64,000 nucleotides of DNA from Bacteroidales bacterium (GTDB taxonomy: Bacteria > Bacteroidota > Bacteroidia > Bacteroidales > P3): positions 16,259 through 80,258 of the forward strand of contig JAFURZ010000005.1 of NCBI GenBank assembly GCA_017480785.1. The letters run 5' to 3'. Positions within the stretch are counted from its first letter, which is position 1. Every line of letters begins with the position of its first letter. Below, piece after piece: positions 19,830 through 56,351 of the stretch. Both the position numbers and the translations under genes were made by a program. Under the pieces are notes generated by a model that saw only the letters and a list, made by a program, of their open reading frames with translations, searched no databases and was not told the origin of the DNA.

Positions 19830-22800
19830 ATGATTATGAATCAAGCAATTACCCCCCCCCCATGCCGATTTGTCGCCATTGAAATCCTGAAAAGGACCGC
19901 AAAAAGGGTGTGCCTGCTGGCCGCCATGCTTATCGGCGTCACAGGGCTTCGTGCCCAGACCCACATTACCGACGTGTCGGGTTTCGACGCCCTCAACGGC
20001 AGCAGCGCCGCCTTCATCATCGACAACGACATCGACGCCTCCTCCCTCGCCACCATTGCCTCCTTCGGCGGCACCCTCGAGGCCGCCATCGACCCTGAGA
20101 CCCACATGCCCTACCGCCTCTCAGGCCTCTCCCACCCCCTCTTCGAGACCCTCACCGGCACCGTCTGCAACCTGGTGCTCGAGGATGTCGGCATCAGCCA
20201 CACTGGCAACACCGGCGCCATCGCCTGCACGGCCTCCGGTGCGGCCCGCATCTACAATGTGGGCATCCTCGGCGGCTCTGTCGGCGGCACGGGCTACACC
20301 GGCGGCCTCGTCGGCCTGCTCGACGGCACGGCCCGCGTGATTAACTGCTACTCCTTCGCCGACATCGTGGGCGGCACGGAAAAGGCCGGCATCGTGGGCT
20401 ACAACAACTACGCCTCCCTCTACAACGACCTCAAGACGATGGTCATGAACTGCATGTTCTATGGCGACATCGCCGAGGGTGGCACCATTGCACCGGTCTA
20501 CGGCGGACTGGAGATAAGCAACGACTACAACAACTCCAACACCAAGCGCCTCAACAACTATAACTATTTTCTCTACGAAGCCTCCTTCAGTGCAGGCCGC
20601 CACATCACGAATTACAACTGTGCGCTGGCCGCCGAGGAGCGCTTCCTCGTCCGGTTCGAGTTCTACCGCCACCTGCTCAACTCCACGCGCGAGATGGCCG
20701 GCTGGTACGTCTACGGCTCCATCCAGGCCGATGCCCACAGCAAGATGCTCAAGTGGGTGCTCGACCCCGCCGTCGCCCGATACCCCGTGCTGAAGGAGCA
20801 AGGCAAGTACCCCTCGGTGGTCAACTACGACCCCGACTACACCTTCGACCCCGTGACCTCCAGCCGGGTGAGTCGCACCGCCGTCACCGAGCCCTACCGC
20901 GGCCGCCACCTCGGCACCCTCACCGTCAACATCGCCAACGCCAAGAGCCAAGGCAAGCAGGACTGGCCGGCCGGCGCCACCGTCAACACCACCTCGCTCA
21001 CCCTCGCCCGCACAGACATGGACGAGCCAAACTACAATTTCAACTACGACAAGGTGCAGCTGCCCTACTACAACGACGTGGGTACGGGCAACTACACGGG
21101 TAACCGTGTGGTCACGGGATGGATTGTCACCGCCGTCACGGGTGGCACGCAGGGCGAGCGCGTGGCCGCCGACTTCACCACCACCACCAATTATGACGCG
21201 CCCTACTACAACTTCGCCGACCGCGACACCTACGCCAAGGACCTCTACTCCATCAGCGGCCGCATCTTCGCCCAGGGAGCCTACTTCAACGTCCCCACCG
21301 GCGTCACCGCCATCACCATCGAGCCCTACTGGGCCGTGTGCACCTACCTCTCCGACGCATACTACGACAGCTATGGCTACATGGATGGCGGCACCAACGA
21401 CACCTACGGCCTGCGCTATACCAACAACAATAACTACACCATAAACGGCAGCTCCCAGAAGGTGTACACCGACGTGGGCAACGCGGTATCCAATCTGACA
21501 GGCGTCACCTCACCCACCGTCTACGACTATGCCGTGGTACTGGTGGGCAACCACCACAGATGCGGCACCTCGGAGCCCTCGGACGGAAACACTCCCTTCA
21601 CCCTCATGTCCATCGACAACAACCGCGACAACGAGCCCGACTACTCGTTCGTTTTCAAGAGCGGCAAAAACCAGAAATGCTCCCCCATACGCTACGACTT
21701 CATCAACATCCCGGCGGCATCCATGGCCCACAAGATGGCGTCGAGCACCGACCTCGCCATCCCGGGCAACGCATTCTACAAAGAATGGATGGAGGTCACC
21801 ACCACAGCCCTCATCCGTTTCGGACAGCTGGAGTACAGTAACAGTAACACTTCGCTGTCGCCCATGATTCTTATGGGTGGCGTGGTGGAACAAATAGTGT
21901 CAAGCAACGATGGAGATACCAACACCGACAAAAGGCGCTACCTCCTCTTCGGCGACAATGTGTGGTTCAAACGGTTTGCCAACGGCATACACGGCGACAA
22001 GACAGGTTCGACTCCCCACCGCCCCATCTCCGTGACAGGAGGCGAATACCTGCGGTTCTACCTCACCGGCTATTTCCGTCCCGACGCAGCTGCCAGCACC
22101 GACAACGCCGAGTGCTACATCGACGGGGGCCGCTTCGGCGACGTGGCAGGGGCCGGACAGGAGAACATCTCCGGCAACGTAAACTGGTTTGTCAACCATG
22201 CCGACATCGAGAACTTCTATGGCGGCGGCATCAAGTCAAGCAACACCAGCCAGATTGCAGGCAACATCACCACAGACATCAGGAACAGCCGCGTAACCCT
22301 TTTCTGCGGCGGACCCATGTTCGGCGACATGGTGGCCGACAAGACCGTCACCACCACCGCCGACCACTGCACCTTCGGCACCTATTTCGGCGCCGGCTAC
22401 GGCGGCAACTCCATCTACCTCAACCGAGTCCAGAACGAATACCAGCACCTGAACGAAAACTGGAACAACTGGATGGGCAATTCCTACGACAACGCCGGCG
22501 GCGGCAACTACCGCGGCAAATACTCCGGCAACGGCATCGCCATCGGCTACGAGTACGAGTTCTTCGCCGGCTCCAGCGGCAACGTAGCGCGCCTCTACAT
22601 CCACAAAGTCTCCTTCTCGCTGGCGAAGTGCAACGACGTCAACTCCACCCTGACGGGCTGCAAGGTGCTTGGCAACTACTACGGCGGCGGCAGCCTCGGA
22701 AAGGTGGTGGGCACCGCGACCTCGGAGCTGACCAGCGACACCGTGCTGGGCAACGTCTTCGGCGCGGGGTTCTCGGTCTCGTTGCCCGACGTGGAAGTGC

Positions 22801-25844: not shown

Positions 25845-26282
25845 TTACCTGCTGTTCCATTTTGCCACGCGCTCTGCCCAGCCTTCGTCGTCATCGCAAA
25901 GCCAGACAATGCCTTCTATCAGTCCGATGATGGCTGGGACACCTGTCCAGCAAAAGAGGATGTCCAAAACACCACGCAGGGCTTGCCCTGTGTAGAAGTG
26001 CTGAACGCCAATATCTCCAAGGAGAATCGCAAGCAGGCCTGCTGTCAACTTGTCGGGGTTTTCGCTGAGTTCGAAAACTTCAGCAGACATATCGTTCTCT
26101 GTTGGGAACGATGCATCCTTCACTGCTTCGAAAGAAACAGAAGCAGGTTTTTCCTCGACCTGCTCGGTGAACATTTGGGGGTCGTTAGTGGTGGTGTTCT
26201 CGGGCTCGGCGAGCAATGACTGAGCTGATGCCGTGGCCATGCCCATCATGGCAGCAACGATTAGAGTAAGAACTCTTTTCAT
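25845..26282 (-). CDS. TM2 domain-containing membrane protein
   Basis: 145-aa ORF with a signal peptide and a C-terminal TM2 pattern (LLAILLGDIGVQHFYTGQALRGVLDILFCWTGVPAIIGLIEGI). Visibly less GC-biased than its flanks. Confidence 0.8.
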   Translation of the reverse strand: MKRVLTLIVAAMMGMATASAQSLLAEPENTTTNDPQMFTEQVEEKPASVSFEAVKDASFPTENDMSAEVFELSENPDKLTAGLLAILLGDIGVQHFYTGQALRGVLDILFCWTGVPAIIGLIEGIVWLCDDDEGWAERVAKWNSR

Positions 26283-26516
26283 AGGTGTGGTAATTTTATA
26301 AGGTTTTGTGCATTATTGCCATAAAAAAGGTACGGATGTTTCCGTCTGCCTTACAGGTTTACCACAACCTCCTTTCCCGACGGACACCGTACCATATAAA
26401 GCACGAATGCCCCAACGGGGAAGGATTATGGTGAAGCACTAATCGACTTCGAGGTGGTAATTTGTAAGGCAATTGAGTTCTTCTTGCCGTATGCATATCT
26501 CTCGCAAACGACGGTG

Positions 26517-26584
26517 CAAAAATACAAACTTTCTGCGACGTGACCAAATTTATTTTGCCATGTGGCTGAAATGTTGTATCTTTG
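26517..26584. promoter_or_regulatory. Back-to-back Bacteroides-type promoters (TM2 gene leftward, ribD rightward)
   Basis: Leftward TAttTTTG is the complement of 26517-26524; rightward TAtcTTTG is at 26577-26584. Central CAAA-tttat-TTTG supplies both -33 elements with 19-20 nt spacers. Confidence 0.65.
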
Positions 26585-26594
26585 CACCCTGAAA

Positions 26595-29431: not shown

Positions 29432-30174
29432 TCACCCTTTCACCTCGACTTTCTGGATGGGATGGCCGGCCACCTTGACGTAATAGAATCCAGCACCAGG
29501 CATGCGCATCACCACGCGCGGTTCGTCCCCTCCAGTACTCACAATATGCCCCATGGGATCGTAGACCTCGACTGGTAACACATCGGCACCCGTCACGATA
29601 ATTTGCAGCCCGTCGACAGCGACCGACACCTCCTGCACCTCCTCCTTGTCAGCCTTGTGAACACGCCGTCGCACCGCGTCTACAGCGACATTCCCAACAA
29701 TGTCGAAACGGGTCAACACCAGGCCCTCGGGCAGCATGCCTCCCGTGCAAACAATCTCCACACAAATATTCCGTCCACTGAAATGACTTAAATCGACACT
29801 GACATGTTCCTCGGCATGGCACACTGCAAGAGCCGCCACAAGCCATTCCAGCACGCCATCGCTACATCGCACACGCAGGGCATAGTGCAACGGAGAGTTG
29901 ACAGGAAGATTGTTGGAATAGTGAAGACCCAAATGTAGCGACATCTGCGAGCCAGTGGGAATACTGAACCATGGACTAATCAGCCGGTCGCCGTACTCGC
30001 AGAGGGTCAGGGCCGCGCCCCTCGCGACATCACGACTGTCGCCATAGCGCCAGCCACGAGGTGACAACCTGTCGTAACAGTACAATATTTTACCCCCCCC
30101 ACAACCTGCGCGGTTGCCGAAAGCGGGAGAAAAGACAGTAGTACCGCCACAAGATATATTTGCCTCAGGTTCAA
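29432..30174 (-). pseudogene. T9SS cargo protein (choice-of-anchor-J-like domain + C-terminal sorting domain), frameshifted at a G8 tract; phase-variation candidate
   Basis: The main ORF 29432..30199 has no signal peptide. The neighbouring frame (ORF 30007..30246) encodes MNLRQIYLVAVLLSFLPLSATAQ from TTG 30174. The two frames meet at C8 (+ strand, 30093-30100). The body has DRLISPWFSIPTGSQMSLHL and a CTD ending GFYYVKVAGHPIQKVEVKG. Confidence 0.55.
30093..30100 (-). repeat. G8 (C8 on + strand) homopolymer tract at the frameshift site of the T9SS cargo gene
   Basis: The signal-peptide frame and the body frame meet here. G9 (or G6) would fuse them. Confidence 0.85.
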
Positions 30175-40346: not shown

Positions 40347-41333
40347 ATGGCAATTACCGCTTCACAGGTTAACGAGCTCCGCAAACTCACCGGCGTCGGC
40401 ATGATGGACTGCAAGAAGGCTCTCGTCGAGACCGACGGCGACATGCAGAAGGCTATCGAGCTGCTGCGCCAGAAAGGCCAGAAGATGGCCGCCAAGCGCG
40501 CCGACCGCGACGCCAACGAGGGTTGCGTGCTGGCCAAGACCATGGGCAACTACGGTGCCCTCATCATGGTGAGCTGCGAGACCGACTTCGTCGCCACCAA
40601 CGCCGGCTTCGTGGACTTCACCAACAGCATCATCGACACCGCCATGGCGCAACACCTCACCACCAAGGAGCAGGTGCTTGACATGGACCTCAACGGTGCC
40701 AAAGTCAGCGACGCCATCACCGACCAAATCGCCAAAATAGGCGAGAAAATCGAGCTGGCCCACTTCGAGACCATCGAGGCCGAGAAGGTCTACGCCTACG
40801 TCCACCCGGGCAACCGCATGGCCTCCATCGTCGGACTGAGCAAGGCCGGTTTCGACCAGGTCGGTCACGACATCGCCATGCAGGTCGTCGCCATGCGTCC
40901 CGTCGCCCTCGACGCCGAGAGCGTGCCCCAGGAGATCAAGGACCAGGAGCTGCGCGTCGCCATCGAGAAGACCAAGGAAGAGCTCGTCGGCAAGGCTGTC
41001 GACGCCGCCCTCAAGAAGGCCGGCATCAACCCCGCCCACGTCGACAGCGAGGAGCACATGGCCTCCAACATAGGCAAAGGCTGGATCACCGAGGAGCAGG
41101 TCAACCAGGCCCGCGAAATCAAGGAGAAGGTCGCCGCCGAAAAGATGGCCCAGCTCAGCGAGCAGCAGATCAACCAGATTGCCAACGGCCGTCTGAACAA
41201 GTACTTCCAGGAGAACACCCTCATGGAGCAGGAGTACATCATGGAAGCCAAGGTGAAGGTGAAAGACTTCATCGCCAAGGCCGACAAGGACCTGAAGTGC
41301 ACCGGTTTCAAGCGCCTCGAACTCGGCGCCTAA
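40347..41333 (+). CDS. tsf: Elongation factor Ts
   Basis: 328-aa ORF: MAITASQVNELRKLTGVGMMDCKKALVETDGDMQKAIELLRQKG. Confidence 0.97.
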   Translation: MAITASQVNELRKLTGVGMMDCKKALVETDGDMQKAIELLRQKGQKMAAKRADRDANEGCVLAKTMGNYGALIMVSCETDFVATNAGFVDFTNSIIDTAMAQHLTTKEQVLDMDLNGAKVSDAITDQIAKIGEKIELAHFETIEAEKVYAYVHPGNRMASIVGLSKAGFDQVGHDIAMQVVAMRPVALDAESVPQEIKDQELRVAIEKTKEELVGKAVDAALKKAGINPAHVDSEEHMASNIGKGWITEEQVNQAREIKEKVAAEKMAQLSEQQINQIANGRLNKYFQENTLMEQEYIMEAKVKVKDFIAKADKDLKCTGFKRLELGA

Positions 41334-41372
41334 GAGCCAATGGTACGCAGGCCGCCTGCCTGCAATAGAACA

Positions 41373-41410
41373 GAAAGCACGCCCCGCAACGGAGCGTGCT
41401 TTCGTCGTTA
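41373..41410 (+). terminator. Terminator-like hairpin after tsf
   Basis: GAAAGCACGC/GCGTGCTTTC stem followed by GTCGTT. Shares CAGAAAGCACGCCCCGC with 25653-25669. Confidence 0.6.
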
Positions 41411-41423
41411 ATATGCAATATCA

Positions 41424-41485
41424 CCGCGCATCATTGCAAAACCGTGTCGCAGCACTGAAAACTGACTTCGCATCGATGCGGAGGC
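41424..41485 (-). repeat. 3' element, diverged copy downstream of the lipoprotein gene
   Basis: The reverse complement ..cagtgctgcgacacggttttgcaatgatgcgcgg aligns with the 3' two-thirds of 56381-56426. Adjacent palindrome cgcatcgatgcg. Confidence 0.6.
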
Positions 41486-41523
41486 TCTGGTTGAACTAAA
41501 AAACGATCTTGCCTCAATTCTTA

Positions 41524-42308
41524 TTATTCAATCATTTCAACGGTTCTTCCAGACGAAAAGCACTCAAGTGTATTGGGTTCTCCTGTATTGAAATAACACG
41601 GAGATGCAGAAACCATCATGGTAAAAAAACCTATTTTCTTCACCTCACATCTCGTGATATAAAATTTGTTTCTAATCTTTTTCCATTGAGGATTGTCTAT
41701 ATTATTTGAAAAAGTAAGGATGTGTTCACACATAAGATCTTCTTTACTGTATACTCCTTTTTTTCTCTCTAGAGAGTACCTAGAGGGTCTTGTCATTCGG
41801 AAGAACTTGACGTTACTTCTTGAATGAGGAGGGATTCCAACAAAACGTTCTTCTGTGGTCTGAACAAACGTGCCTGATGTAGAAGTTTCCCCCATGTTTA
41901 CACCATTTGCTACGGTTTGAGTTATTGGTCCAGCGCCTACGGCTCTTGTCACCGCACCGGCATTCACATTCATACTCCTGCTTTGGATATTCGTTGTTGT
42001 GACGACAGCATTATTATATATTTTGATAGCGTTTCCATAATTAGTTCCAAGTTCGTTATGTGAAATAAAAAAGGATTCCCCCAGATCAATATATAACATG
42101 CTGTCCGTCTCATTATAAACAAACAATGAACCATCTACATCATATTCTAACCGAATACCTTCATCTGAAATGGAGACTTCCATTCGAGATTGGTTGTCAG
42201 GTTTACATTCAGAATTAACACAGCGAACAGTGTAGGTTAGTCGGTTTACCGGCACGCATGATGTAAAAAGTGTAATTGCTAGGGTAGCAACAAAAAAGTT
42301 TTTTTCAT
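41524..42308 (-). pseudogene. Hypothetical lipoprotein gene, start codon out of frame at an A7/T6 tract; phase-variation candidate (AT-rich islet)
   Basis: The body ORF 41524..42255 is listed from GTG. Upstream, ATG 42308 reads MKKTFLLLP-stop. One extra A (A8) or T (T7) would give MKK(N/T)FFVATLAITLFTSC VPVNRL..., a canonical lipoprotein signal fused to the body. GC content is far below the flanks. No domain recognised. Confidence 0.5.
42292..42305 (-). repeat. A7-C-T6 tract immediately after the ATG of the lipoprotein gene
   Basis: Minus strand reads atg aaaaaaa c tttttt g. A +1 change in either run restores the lipoprotein signal peptide frame. Confidence 0.85.
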
Positions 42309-42560
42309 ATTTTATACCCTAATACGTGCCGGGCGCAACTTTCAAGCTCTTCCGCACCCCGTTGAGCGATTATTAAAGAAGCGTGGTGCCGTCACACCAT
42401 TCTTACATGGAGGTCGTAGGAATTACCTTGAAAAGAGAAGATGCAATAAGCCCACGCTATATAGCGAAGACCATTACACAAATTCTGCTTTTCTCTGGAA
42501 GTTTCCTACGTTTCCATGTACAGAATAAGCGTAAACGCTTCGGTGATTTCCTCATGAAAT
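42309..42560 (-). promoter_or_regulatory. Conserved long 5' leader (copy 1) upstream of the frameshifted lipoprotein gene
   Basis: Aligns block by block with 55647-55880. Shared blocks include GATTTC-N5-GAAATC, CGAAGCGTT, TATAGCGTGG, CAAGGTA, ACCACGCTTCT and CGCTCAACGGGGT. Confidence 0.55.
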
Positions 42561-42566
42561 CGACTG

Positions 42567-42634
42567 CAAAAGTACAAACTTTCTACGACGTGGCCAAATT
42601 TATTTTGCCATGTGGCTGAATTGTCGTATCTTTG
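42567..42634. promoter_or_regulatory. Back-to-back promoters (lipoprotein gene leftward, Bro-N gene rightward)
   Basis: Leftward TActTTTG is the complement of 42567-42574; rightward TAtcTTTG is at 42627-42634. 67/72 identical to 26515-26586. Confidence 0.65.
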
Positions 42635-42657
42635 CAGTCGGAAAACACACATTCGGC

Positions 42658-43497
42658 ATGACGAAGAAGCAAGCAATACAATTCTTTGAGGAGAAGAAGG
42701 TGCGCACCGTGTGGGACGACGAGCAGGAGAAGTGGTATTTCTCCATCGTGGACACCGTGGCGGTGCTGACGGACAGCCCCAATCCGCACAATTATTGGAA
42801 AGTCTTGAAACATAGGCTCAAGAAAGAGGGCAACGAGTCGGTTACAAAATGTAACCAACTGAAATTAATATCGACCGACGGGAAAAGCTACAAGACTGAT
42901 GTCGCCGACACCGAGCAGCTTTTCCGCCTCATCCAGTCCATCCCCTCGCCCAAGGCGGAGCCTTTCAAGCAGTGGATGGCGCAGGTGGCGGCCGAGCGGC
43001 TGGACCAGATGCAGGACCCCGAGCTGGGCATCGAGCAGGCGCTGATGGACTACAAACGGCTGGGCTACTCCGACAACTGGATCAACCAGCGGCTGAAGTC
43101 CATCGAGATACGCAAGGACCTCACCGACGAGTGGAAGCGCCACGGCCTGAAGGAGGGCGTGCAGTTCGCCACGCTGACCGACATCATCTACCATACATGG
43201 TCGGGTATGACCGCCAAGGAGTACAAGCACTTCAAAGGCCTAAAGAAGGAGAATCTGCGCGACAACATGACGAATAGGGAACTCGTCCTCAACATGCTGG
43301 CCGAACTCTCCACCAAGGACATCTCCGAGGCGCGCAACCCCGAGACCTTCGGCGAGCACGCCGAGGTGGCCCGACAGGGCGGCGAGATTGCCGCTGGCGC
43401 CCGCCGTGAGCTTGAAGCCAAGACCGGCAAGCCAGTCGTCACCTCGCTCAACGCCAAGGACGTGTTGCAGATTGAAGACAAAGCCACCGAAAAGTAA
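42658..43497 (+). CDS. Bro-N domain protein (DinD/antirepressor-like C-terminal half)
   Basis: ORF 42610..43497 trimmed to ATG 42658. Bro-N-like FEEKKVRTVWDDEQEKWYFSIVDTVAVL. The C-terminal part resembles DNA-damage-inducible protein D-type proteins. Confidence 0.75.
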   Translation: MTKKQAIQFFEEKKVRTVWDDEQEKWYFSIVDTVAVLTDSPNPHNYWKVLKHRLKKEGNESVTKCNQLKLISTDGKSYKTDVADTEQLFRLIQSIPSPKAEPFKQWMAQVAAERLDQMQDPELGIEQALMDYKRLGYSDNWINQRLKSIEIRKDLTDEWKRHGLKEGVQFATLTDIIYHTWSGMTAKEYKHFKGLKKENLRDNMTNRELVLNMLAELSTKDISEARNPETFGEHAEVARQGGEIAAGARRELEAKTGKPVVTSLNAKDVLQIEDKATEK

Positions 43498-55481: not shown

Positions 55482-55572
55482 AAAAAAGAAATCGACAGGC
55501 TGGCTCGCTCGGAAGGTCATCGCCAAATTGTGGACGTCTGAACTGGACTGTTCCCCTATTGATTTCCGACTG

Positions 55573-55641
55573 CAAAAGTACAACTTTTTTTCGGACTGAC
55601 AAAATTTATTTTTGCCAGTCCGATTTATTTATGTATTTTTG
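55573..55641. promoter_or_regulatory. Promoter module upstream of the small OMP gene; its leftward half has no target gene
   Basis: Leftward TActTTTG is the complement of 55573-55580; rightward TAttTTTG is at 55634-55641 with TTTG at 55611-55614 (19-nt spacer). Confidence 0.6.
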
Positions 55642-55646
55642 CAGCC

Positions 55647-55880
55647 GATTTCGGAAGGAAATCTTCGAAGCGTTATATCTTCGTCTTGCGATTGGGAATG
55701 TGAGAAGTTCATCGATAAGCGAGATAGGTATGATGGTTCGCGTGTATAGCGTGGACTTTATATCACATCTGCTTATCAAGGTATTCTCACAACCTCCAAT
55801 CGAAGAAGTGGTGTACGGTACCACGCTTCTGTTTTAACCGCTCAACGGGGTACGGGAGAGCACGAAAAAAACTAATAATA
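55647..55880 (+). promoter_or_regulatory. Conserved long 5' leader (copy 2) upstream of the small OMP gene
   Basis: Same blocks in the same order as 42309-42560 (minus). 5'-terminal hairpin GATTTC(55647-52)/GAAATC(55658-63). Confidence 0.55.
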
Positions 55881-56351
55881 ATGAAAAGATTAACGGTAAT
55901 TGCAGTGCTCATTCTTTTTTTAGCTTCAATGCAAGCAAACGCACAAACCACAGATGACCAACAAAAGATGGATTACACGAGAGGTAGTGGCTTTGTAATT
56001 CGTCCTGAATTAAACAATGGTCTACTTGCTACATTAGGTTACCAAATTAACCCTTATGTAATGTTAGAAGGGAGCCTTGGTTTTGATTTGTCGGGCTCTG
56101 CAGCCATGACTACGGTTATCGGTGTCAGGGCATACACTTCTAGCAAGCCTTGGGCCGCTTTTTTTGATTATCGTGTTGGCGCAGAAAGCGTCTCGGGATA
56201 TAGCATAACTAGACATACGATTGTTGCAGGTGCAGCATATAAAGACTTTGATTTTGGAGCCGGTGTAATATTCGGCACTGATGGGACGACAAGTGTCACA
56301 GGTCTATCCATCTCAATTGGATATAATATTCGCTGCTACAAGCACCGATAA
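55881..56351 (+). CDS. Small exported beta-barrel-like protein (AT-rich islet)
   Basis: 156-aa ORF with signal peptide MKRLTVIAVLILFLASMQANAQ and a short barrel-like pattern ending GLSISIGYNIRCYKHR. Markedly AT-richer than its flanks. Confidence 0.6.
   Translation: MKRLTVIAVLILFLASMQANAQTTDDQQKMDYTRGSGFVIRPELNNGLLATLGYQINPYVMLEGSLGFDLSGSAAMTTVIGVRAYTSSKPWAAFFDYRVGAESVSGYSITRHTIVAGAAYKDFDFGAGVIFGTDGTTSVTGLSISIGYNIRCYKHR

What the first reader, a model, noticed from the sequence alone, without database searches (positions are those of the whole stretch)
42292..42308. Lipoprotein gene in an AT-rich islet has its ATG out of frame at an A7-C-T6 tract
ATG 42308 followed by A7 C T6 reads MKKTFLLLP-stop. 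Adding one A or one T gives MKK(N/T)FFVATLAITLFTSC-VPVNRL..., which is a textbook lipoprotein signal with lipobox Cys, fused to the 243-aa body (41524-42255). As it stands, the body could only start at an internal GTG with no export signal. This is the third surface-protein gene in the window with a 5' homopolymer tract.
Basis: seen in the sequence. Interest (0 to 1): 0.6.

Follow-up and report, generated by a model that had tools for sequence, protein, structure and literature searches.

The report
Frameshifted lipoprotein gene, stably off
A small strain-specific lipoprotein gene of an uncultured rumen Bacteroidales bacterium has lost one base in a short A/T run right after its start codon, cutting the export signal off the protein. 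Every available assembly shows the same broken state, so it looks like an ordinary, recently inactivated (at best slowly reversible) gene and not a fast on/off switch.

Summary
On the minus strand, ATG 42308 is followed by A7-C-T6 and reads MKKTFLLLP-stop. The 264-codon open frame carrying FVATLAITLFTSC plus the body lies one base out of register.

Homologues show that this is a truncated lipoprotein signal. In 15 relatives an N-terminal Met-Lys/Arg signal ends in an invariant Ser-Cys aligned with TLFTSC. The DNA of two relatives has the signal in frame. A conserved promoter and ~240-nt leader, shared with another cassette in the window, ends just before ATG 42308.

The frameshift is not an assembly slip. 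11-13 metagenome contigs from several samples carry the same state, and the five I read are letter-for-letter identical. No in-frame version exists among 5.8 billion protein clusters.

A C10 tract 22 kb away on the same contigs does vary (C10 versus C9). A7 and T6 runs are commonplace in this genome (426 and 890).

Most likely this is a recent, clonally fixed inactivating deletion, comparable to the Listeria inlA A7/A6 case.

The protein family is uncharacterised and surface exposure is unproven. Interest is low.

The parts
42567..42598 (-). Bacteroidetes-type promoter for the lipoprotein gene: -33 TTTG (42598-42595) and -7 TACTTTTG (42574-42567). It is one half of a palindromic divergent promoter module (42561-42640).
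   Evidence: Motif positions. 39-nt inverted repeat I1. The module is conserved in two other units of the window. The promoter consensus TAnnTTTG / TTTG is from my own knowledge of Bacteroides promoters.
42309..42566 (-). 5' leader of about 258 nt, homologous to the leader of the unit at 55570-55900 (+). It carries an extra ~22 nt (about 42333-42312) just before the ATG.
   Evidence: Alignment A3. No Rfam family matches.
42306..42308 (-). True start codon ATG.
   Evidence: It is the first ATG after the conserved leader, in the same position as the start of the paralogous cassette. It is followed by Lys-Lys, as in homologues.
42292..42305 (-). A7-C-T6 tract, the site of the 1-nt deficit (ancestral A8-C-T6 = MKKNFF or A7-C-T7 = MKKTFF). 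It also contains a formal T_TTT_TTG slippery heptamer in frame 0 (42297-42291).
   Evidence: Identical in the five other contigs read.
42279..42281 (-). TAG stop of the 9-codon frame-0 peptide MKKTFLLLP.
42256..42294 (-). Orphaned h-region and lipobox (FVATLAITLFTS-C; Cys codon 42258-42256), in the frame of the body.
   Evidence: S12 and C13 are invariant in alignment A2.
41524..42255 (-). Mature-protein body (243 codons from GTG 42255; stop 41526-41524). It is an intact beta-sandwich protein of an uncharacterised Bacteroidales lipoprotein family.
   Evidence: all family-invariant residues are retained. AF2 model pLDDT 66. No PDB, Pfam or NCBIfam match.
41373..41403 (-). Terminator-like 14-bp hairpin between the lipoprotein gene and the convergent tsf gene.
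   Evidence: (I4).
42658..43497 (+). Divergent neighbour: Bro-N domain protein. The real start is probably ATG 42658, because the + strand -7 box TATCTTTG lies at 42627-42634, downstream of the ATG 42610 used by gene callers.
   Evidence: Pfam PF02498, E 1.5e-12. Motif positions.

Best explanation
The gene encodes a small (about 261 aa) lipoprotein of an uncharacterised Bacteroidales family. It is carried in a strain-specific AT-rich cassette (promoter, ~260-nt leader, one gene) inserted in a variable spot downstream of tsf.

In this clone one base has been lost from the coding run that follows the start codon (A8 to A7 or T7 to T6). Ribosomes starting at ATG 42308 therefore make MKKTFLLLP and stop. 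The hydrophobic segment, the lipobox Cys and the body are left without a start codon, so essentially no exported lipoprotein is made.

The loss is recent, because the body is fully intact. It is fixed in the population sampled. Such a short A/T run can slip back, but only at roughly 1e-7, the rate measured for the Listeria inlA A6/A7 tract. It therefore behaves as a young pseudogene or a slowly reversible OFF allele, not as a rapid contingency switch.

Shown: the frameshift, its reproducibility, and the lipoprotein nature of the intact form.
Inferred: the direction and recency of the mutation, the absence of product, and the slow reversion.
For: Frame geometry.

Lipoprotein family:
- 354 relatives at E<=1e-3.
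- The 15 closest relatives aligned (A2) all have a Met + K/R + hydrophobic signal ending in an invariant S-C aligned to TLFTSC.
- Same-genus relatives do likewise.
- The DNA of P0003 (43% identity) and P0009 has the signal in frame.

The conserved promoter and leader end at ATG 42308.

Reproducibility:
- 13 contigs carry the 219-aa call.
- 11 contigs found through the neighbouring Bro-N protein, independent of this gene's state, all have the 219-aa neighbour in the three places shown. The other eight contigs were grouped with them by the tool and not inspected.
- Five loci are 100% identical to the window over up to 6.66 kb, including A7-C-T6.
- No in-frame 261-aa form was found, and no tract variant in JGI metagenomes.

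Contrast: the C10 tract at 19852-19861 is C9 in 2 of 8 of the same contigs.

Ordinariness of the tract:
- 426 A/T7 and 890 A/T6 runs in the genome.
- 20 intact ORFs begin ATG+A7 or more.

Precedent and rates: PMC2831843.
Against: - A minority ON subpopulation cannot be excluded.
- All contigs come from one study and are the same clone, so there is no true between-strain comparison.
- The intact body, the intact promoter and leader, and the presence of real variable poly-C tracts in other exported-protein genes of this genome are also what a maintained switch would look like.
- A formal T_TTT_TTG heptamer, an A-run, and an in-frame ATA 6 nt upstream could give low-level product without any DNA change.
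Confidence: 0.7

Rival explanations
1. Slipped-strand phase variation. The A7 or T6 run is a contingency tract, the assemblies show the majority OFF phase, and a minority of cells carry A8 or T7 and display the lipoprotein.
For: - The tract lies in the first 6 codons, and +1 nt restores a complete signal.
- The body and expression module are intact.
- The same genome has an excess of long G/C runs: 37 of 8 or more, where about 3 would be expected from the decay of shorter runs.
- Several of these sit just after the ATG of exported-protein genes, and one demonstrably varies between samples.
Against: - There is no length variant in 11-13 contigs, while C10 varies in the same contigs.
- There is no ON allele in any database.
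- A7 and T6 runs are common, unremarkable lengths here.
- 20 genes start ATG+A7 or more and stay in frame.
- Measured slippage at A6/A7 is about 1e-7 to 1e-8 in Listeria, far below classical contingency loci.
- C8 and G8 tracts also show no visible variation.
Confidence: 0.13
2. Leaky or programmed decoding. A fraction of ribosomes or transcripts restores the frame, so some full-length lipoprotein is made from the frameshifted DNA. Possible routes are a -1 slip on U_UUU_UUG or on the A-run, polymerase stuttering on A7/T6, or initiation at the in-frame AUA 42315-42313.
For: - The T_TTT_TTG heptamer is in frame 0 at 42297-42291, and A7 precedes it.
- AUA is in the body frame 6 nt upstream of the ATG.
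- A start-region hairpin (42332-42315 pairing with 42286-42249) is predicted with z = -2.5.
- The body is intact.
Against: - Homologues have plain in-frame signals, so the shift is not conserved.
- There is no significant structure downstream of the heptamer (z = 0.11).
- The predicted long hairpin's 5' arm lies within about 25 nt upstream of the AUG, so an initiating ribosome would be expected to cover or open it (inference from the usual size of a ribosome footprint).
- A shift at codon 5-6 has no known precedent as a regulatory device (own knowledge).
- AUA starts are very weak (own knowledge).
Confidence: 0.08
3. Assembly or sequencing artefact. The real DNA is A8 or T7 and the gene is intact.
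For: The genome is a metagenome-assembled draft of 19 contigs, and homopolymers are the classic site of indel errors.
Against: - The same state appears in contigs from at least three Logan run assemblies and three ENA assemblies, which are two independent assembly pipelines.
- Runs of 6-7 bases are short.
- The same data resolve a C10/C9 difference.
- There is no other broken MKK-type start in the genome.
Confidence: 0.03
4. The real product is a cytoplasmic protein started at GTG 42255 or ATG 42183. The upstream signal-like segment is irrelevant.
For: Gene callers output these forms (219 and 243 aa). Reinitiation after the 9-codon ORF is conceivable, since the GTG lies 24 nt after the stop.
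Against: - The whole family is secreted or lipid-anchored, with an invariant Cys exactly upstream of the GTG.
- The orphaned h-region is still perfectly open in the body frame.
- The leader delivers ribosomes to ATG 42308.
Confidence: 0.04

Closest known systems
Listeria monocytogenes inlA 5' poly(A) tract (A7 in frame, A6 frameshifted; Orsi, Bowen and Wiedmann 2010, PMC2831843)
   Same: Both have a short A-run in the first codons of a gene for an exported cell-envelope protein. Loss of one base gives a stop after 8 (inlA) or 9 (here) codons. The rest of the gene stays intact, and the change is reversible in principle by slippage.
   Different: For inlA, both alleles are seen in natural isolates and reversion was measured (A6 to A7 at 5.5e-7). 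Here only the broken allele is known and nothing has been measured. Here two adjacent runs (A7 and T6) could each repair the frame. The organism is an uncultured Bacteroidales and the protein family is different.
Classical homopolymer contingency loci (poly-G/C tracts in Neisseria, Haemophilus, Campylobacter and Helicobacter surface genes; own knowledge)
   Same: A 5' coding homopolymer whose length sets the reading frame of an envelope protein gene.
   Different: Those tracts are usually 8 or more G/C (or longer A/T), switch at 1e-2 to 1e-5, and are polymorphic within and between cultures. This tract is A7/T6 and invariant in all assemblies. The window's own C10 tract at 19852-19861 fits that class much better.
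Ordinary frameshift pseudogenes in accessory islands
   Same: A single indel in a horizontally acquired, strain-specific, AT-rich gene. There is no in-frame allele anywhere.
   Different: There is only one lesion. All family-invariant residues and the expression module are intact, so it is very young or still of use.
Uncharacterised Bacteroidales lipoprotein family (closest P0003, 43% identity; one member named only 'hypothetical protein', Bacteroidaceae MAG)
   Same: The same SPII-type signal with S-C lipobox, and the same beta-sandwich core with a Gly/Ser/Thr-rich loop and the EERY(I/V)xIPP motif.
   Different: The window's copy lacks the C-terminal membrane helix present in most relatives, and its signal is out of frame.

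Membership tests
Bacterial lipoprotein precursor (SPase II signal) | Positively charged n-region directly after the initiator Met | tested here: met
   ATG-AAA-AAA (M-K-K) at 42308-42300. Homologues have M-K/R/N-K.
Bacterial lipoprotein precursor (SPase II signal) | Hydrophobic h-region followed by a lipobox ending in an invariant Cys | tested here: met
   FVATLAITLFTS-C. S12 and C13 are invariant in 16 aligned sequences.
Bacterial lipoprotein precursor (SPase II signal) | n-region, h-region, Cys and mature protein in one continuous reading frame from a start codon | tested here: not met
   Frame 0 stops after 9 codons. The h-region and body are in the -1 frame, with no ATG, GTG or TTG before the Cys.
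Surface-exposed Bacteroidetes lipoprotein | Acidic lipoprotein export signal just after the Cys (K/Q-x-D/E-D/E type; own knowledge of Lauber et al. 2016) | tested here: not met
   The sequence after the Cys is VPVNRL. Homologues have TTMNH, HTLNL, STLRT and the like. The motif rule is recalled from memory, not tested by a tool.
Homopolymer contingency (phase-variable) locus | Repeat tract inside the 5' coding region where +/-1 unit changes the frame | tested here: met
   A7-C-T6 occupies codons 2-6.
Homopolymer contingency (phase-variable) locus | Tract length unusual for the genome or in the hypermutable range | tested here: not met
   There are 426 A/T7 and 890 A/T6 runs in 2.25 Mb, with no excess. 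G/C runs of 8 or more are the over-represented class.
Homopolymer contingency (phase-variable) locus | Length polymorphism between sibling populations, with ON and OFF alleles both seen | tested here: not met
   11-13 contigs all carry the OFF call: five were read directly and the rest inferred from gene calls. No ON protein was found in 5.8 G clusters or 1.84 G representatives. The C10 control tract varies.
Homopolymer contingency (phase-variable) locus | Within-sample length heterogeneity in reads | not testable with these tools
Programmed -1 ribosomal frameshift site | X_XXY_YYZ slippery heptamer in the zero frame | tested here: met
   T_TTT_TTG at 42297-42291 in the frame of ATG 42308.
Programmed -1 ribosomal frameshift site | Stimulatory structure a few nt downstream | tested here: not met
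   The downstream 102 nt fold no better than shuffles (z = 0.11). The only feature is a 7-bp hairpin abutting the heptamer.
Programmed -1 ribosomal frameshift site | Frameshift conserved among homologues | tested here: not met
   The homologues' signals are in frame.
inlA-type 5' poly(A) frameshift inactivation | Short A-run in the first ~10 codons, with a stop within ~10 codons in the shifted allele | tested here: met
   Stop after codon 9. inlA stops after aa 8.
inlA-type 5' poly(A) frameshift inactivation | In-frame allele present in related strains, with measurable reversion | tested here: not met
   No other strain or species carries the gene. Reversion cannot be measured with these tools.

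The most novel reading that the evidence does not exclude
The one-base offset is maintained on purpose. A start-region hairpin (42332-42315 with 42286-42249) is created by a gene-specific 22-nt insert in an otherwise conserved leader. It encloses the AUG, the slippery A7-C-U6 run and the frame-0 stop. Together these would set a low, regulated level of frame-restoring slippage (ribosomal or transcriptional), so that a potentially costly envelope protein is made only in trace amounts or under particular conditions.
Probability: 0.06. Interest if true: 0.55.

Novelty: new member of a known kind. Interest (0 to 1): 0.2.

Why it matters
In itself it matters little. It is one more accessory gene switched off by a single-base loss in a short coding homopolymer.

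It is useful as a calibrated negative. In this rumen Bacteroidales clone a C10 tract at the 5' end of a large GLUG-repeat exported-protein gene changes length between samples, whereas A7/T6, C8 and G8 tracts do not. That helps decide which of the window's '5' homopolymer' genes deserve to be called phase-variable.

It also adds a correct N-terminus for an unannotated lipoprotein family that gene callers truncate. And it shows that the conserved promoter-leader cassette can carry a dead cargo gene.

Tried and rejected
- Read-level test: the look-up of sequencing runs and read laying with the run ids learned from the contig look-up were both closed. I did not try them again.
- Pattern scan of JGI metagenome contigs allowing any A-run or T-run length: no hit at all. 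The organism is simply not in that collection.
- Pfam and NCBIfam on the protein and three homologues: nothing.
- The profile word-search gave only unnamed proteins without Pfam domains.
- AF2 model (pLDDT 66, beta-sandwich with a disordered Gly/Ser loop) against the PDB: best E 0.013, TM about 0.2 (arrestin, ApaG). This is a generic sandwich with no functional lead.
- Rfam on 41300-42800: nothing.
- Generic 'indel fuses ORFs' scan over all runs of 6 or more: 451 hits, mostly spurious fusions with non-coding upstream frames. I replaced it with the stricter MKK-start scan.
- First nadB look-up failed because of a wrong start codon. It was repeated with the right one.
That this contig carries the frameshift rests on its being listed as the longest contig encoding P0002.
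- Invertible-promoter idea: the inverted repeats around the start are only 8 + 7 bp, 62 nt apart, and the module at 42561-42640 is a palindromic divergent promoter. Rejected.
- Two literature searches for homopolymer phase variation in Bacteroidales or Bacteroidetes returned no paper that reports it in that group, judged from titles and abstracts.

Full report
**1. The observation**

Read on the minus strand, the sequence is gggtataaaat-ATG-AAAAAAA-C-TTTTTT-G-TTGCTACCCTAGCAATT...

- ATG is at 42308-42306, A7 at 42305-42299, C at 42298 and T6 at 42297-42292.
- From the ATG the frame reads MKKTFLLLP and stops at TAG 42281-42279.
- The neighbouring frame is open for 264 codons from 42318 to the stop at 41526-41524. 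From 42294 it reads FVATLAITLFTSCVPVNRLTYTV... (P0001).
- One extra A gives MKKNFFVATLAITLFTSC. One extra T gives MKKTFFVATLAITLFTSC.
- In the body frame the only canonical starts are GTG 42255, immediately after the Cys codon (243 aa), and ATG 42183 (219 aa).
- Upstream of the h-region that frame holds only a non-canonical ATA (42315-42313) before a TAG.
- The gene lies in a 1.2-kb stretch of 36-43% GC between flanks of about 60% GC.

Every statement in the finding about the sequence is correct.

**2. Is the out-of-frame signal real?**

An exhaustive HMMER search found 354 relatives at E<=1e-3. The closest is 43% identical, and one entry is the window's own 219-aa gene call. No Pfam or NCBIfam model matches.

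I aligned the 15 closest relatives with P0001. Each starts with Met, a Lys/Arg/Asn-rich n-region and a hydrophobic stretch ending in Ser-Cys. These two columns are invariant and align with S12-C13 of TLFTSC.

- Five more distant relatives in the same genus, including a paralogue in this genome, have the same kind of signal.
- For two relatives I read the DNA. P0003 has ATGAAAAGACAAAAAAAACAA... with the signal in frame. The apparently signal-less P0009 is merely a miscalled start with MKLHNLIGVILLSIFISSC in frame upstream.

So the family consists of lipoproteins, and this copy alone has its signal split.

Independent support for ATG 42308 as the start comes from the upstream region. Positions 42640-42309 are homologous to the promoter module and ~240-nt leader of another single-gene unit at 55570-55900, whose ATG and signal peptide follow directly.

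A Bacteroidetes-type -33 TTTG / -7 TACTTTTG pair sits at 42598-42567. It is one arm of a palindromic divergent promoter shared with the Bro-N gene.

**3. Is the frameshift real DNA?**

The genome is a 19-contig, 2.25-Mb, 57% GC draft of an uncultured rumen Bacteroidales. Its nearest EF-Ts relatives are RUG/RGIG rumen MAGs.

- The 219-aa product is encoded on 13 public contigs.
- Five of them, from ENA and Logan assemblies of several samples of one ruminant study, are 100% identical to the window over up to 6.66 kb, including A7-C-T6.
- That look-up can only find frameshifted copies, so I repeated it with the neighbouring Bro-N protein. It returned 11 contigs. The three places shown all have the 219-aa neighbour, and the tool grouped the other eight with them as having mostly the same neighbouring genes.
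- No 261-aa in-frame version exists among 5.8 billion clusters or 1.84 billion representatives.
- A pattern allowing any run lengths found nothing in JGI metagenomes.

An assembly error is therefore very unlikely. These contigs are one clone, however, so this is a comparison of samples, not of strains.

**4. Switch or lesion?**

- The C10 run at 19852-19861 lies between the ATG and the signal peptide of a 1131-aa protein with GLUG and M26_N matches.
- It is C10 in the window and in one group of 6 contigs. It is C9 in a group of 2 contigs, where the gene call drops to 1099 aa. I read one contig of each group directly; the group sizes come from the tool's grouping.
- The two contigs read differ by only one further mismatch in 6.6 kb.
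- One C9 contig is the 133,965-bp scaffold that is also the longest contig listed for the frameshifted lipoprotein product.

A genuine hypermutable tract thus shows up as a difference between these assemblies, while A7-C-T6 does not. A C8 and a G8 tract also show no visible difference.

Genome-wide counts point the same way:

- A/T runs of 7 and 6 are ordinary (426 and 890).
- G/C runs of 8 or more are clearly over-represented. There are 37, against about 3 expected from the tenfold drop per added base seen for shorter runs.
- Of 338 ATG-AAR-AAR sites, 213 start ORFs of 100 aa or more.
- 20 of those begin ATG+A7 or more and are in frame. Only this gene has its signal in another frame.

The measured precedent is Listeria inlA. 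The A7 allele is in frame, and A6 stops after 8 codons. A6 to A7 occurs at about 5.5e-7 and A7 to A6 at about 4e-8 (PMC2831843). That is well above the point-mutation rate, but orders of magnitude too slow to act as a population-level switch. The rates of classical contingency loci are from my own knowledge.

**5. State of the rest of the gene**

The body retains every family-invariant residue. It is open for 257 codons at 38% GC, which has a chance of about 2e-8. The lesion is therefore recent, or the gene is still of some use.

- The AF2 model is a beta-sandwich with a disordered Gly/Ser/Thr-rich loop (pLDDT 66). It has no meaningful PDB neighbour.
- Nothing after the Cys resembles the acidic surface-export motif of Bacteroidetes lipoproteins (own knowledge).
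- Most relatives carry a C-terminal membrane helix. 'Surface protein' is thus unproven.
- The gene and its Bro-N neighbour are absent next to tsf in 12 related species. In those species the tsf-to-rSAM/comM interval holds other cargo. The interval is a variable spot, and this gene is accessory.

**6. Alternatives that make protein without a DNA change**

- Frame 0 contains T_TTT_TTG and an A-run. An in-frame AUA lies 6 nt upstream.
- There is no significant structure downstream of the heptamer (z = 0.11).
- Homologues have no shift.
- The one notable fold pairs 42332-42315 with 42286-42249 (z = -2.5). Its 5' arm lies within about 25 nt of the AUG, so I would expect an initiating ribosome to cover or open it. 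This is inference from the usual size of a ribosome footprint.
- Part of that 5' arm lies in a 22-nt insert absent from the paralogous leader. I record this as unexplained.

**7. Verdict**

- The best explanation is a recent, clonally fixed one-base deletion in a short coding homopolymer: a young pseudogene or a slowly reversible OFF allele of the inlA type (0.70).
- The rivals are rapid phase variation (0.13), leaky recoding (0.08), a cytoplasmic product (0.04) and an artefact (0.03).
- It is a new member of a known kind and interest is low.
- The more interesting by-product is direct evidence that the C10 tract 22 kb away is length-variable in the same population.

Noticed in passing
window 19852-19861: The C10 run between the ATG (19830/19836) and the signal peptide of a 1131-aa GLUG / M26_N-like exported protein is C10 (in frame) in the window and one group of 6 contigs. 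It is C9 (out of frame, gene call 1099 aa) in a group of 2 contigs of the same clone. One contig of each group was read; they otherwise differ by 1 mismatch in 6.6 kb. This is direct evidence of homopolymer length variation in a rumen Bacteroidales.
   Followed up: yes
genome contigs C10:18449-18458, C17:166341-166349, C17:17521-17528, C15:28429-28435 (outside the window): Four paralogous ~565-aa lipoprotein genes (MK.K.LPPP...C; no Pfam match) each have a C10, C9, C8 or C7 run right after the ATG. All four are out of frame with it in this assembly. The C8 copy is identical in the two other contigs read, which represent eight contigs found by the look-up. G/C runs of 8 or more are about 10-fold over-represented genome-wide.
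   Followed up: partly
window 42561-42640: A 39-nt imperfect palindrome carries back-to-back Bacteroidetes -7 boxes: TACTTTTG at 42574-42567 on the minus strand and TATCTTTG at 42627-42634 on the plus strand. It is a symmetric divergent promoter for the lipoprotein and Bro-N genes. It implies that the Bro-N start used by gene callers (42610) is upstream of the transcription start, and that ATG 42658 (MTKKQAIQFF) is the real one.
   Followed up: partly
window 42309-42640 (-) versus 55570-55900 (+) and 26190-26590 (-): The promoter module is shared by all three units. The ~240-nt leader is shared by the lipoprotein unit and the 55570 unit. No Rfam family matches the lipoprotein unit's leader region, 41300-42800.
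   Followed up: partly
window 42249-42332 (-): A predicted hairpin (CCGGCACG..TAGGGTA pairing with TACCCTA..CGTGCCGG; -34 kcal/mol over 146 nt, z = -2.5) encloses the start codon, the A7-C-T6 run and the frame-0 stop. Part of its 5' arm lies in a 22-nt insert absent from the paralogous leader (I18, 65). Its meaning is unknown.
   Followed up: no
L018:7000-11800 and L020:7000-9500 (related rumen MAGs): The interval between tsf and the radical-SAM activase / comM genes is a variable spot. In related species it holds repeated genes for proteins starting MTHGKNICKQLKEVRKRIAEENDIPLEIEECTYKGECRGTCPRCEAE (zinc-ribbon-like N-terminus, then a membrane helix), small lipoproteins and a TPR protein, in place of the lipoprotein and Bro-N pair.
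   Followed up: no
window 30093-30100: The G8/C8 run at the 5' end of the split secreted-protein gene shows no visible difference among the long contigs of the other samples, judged by gene-call pattern only.
   Followed up: partly
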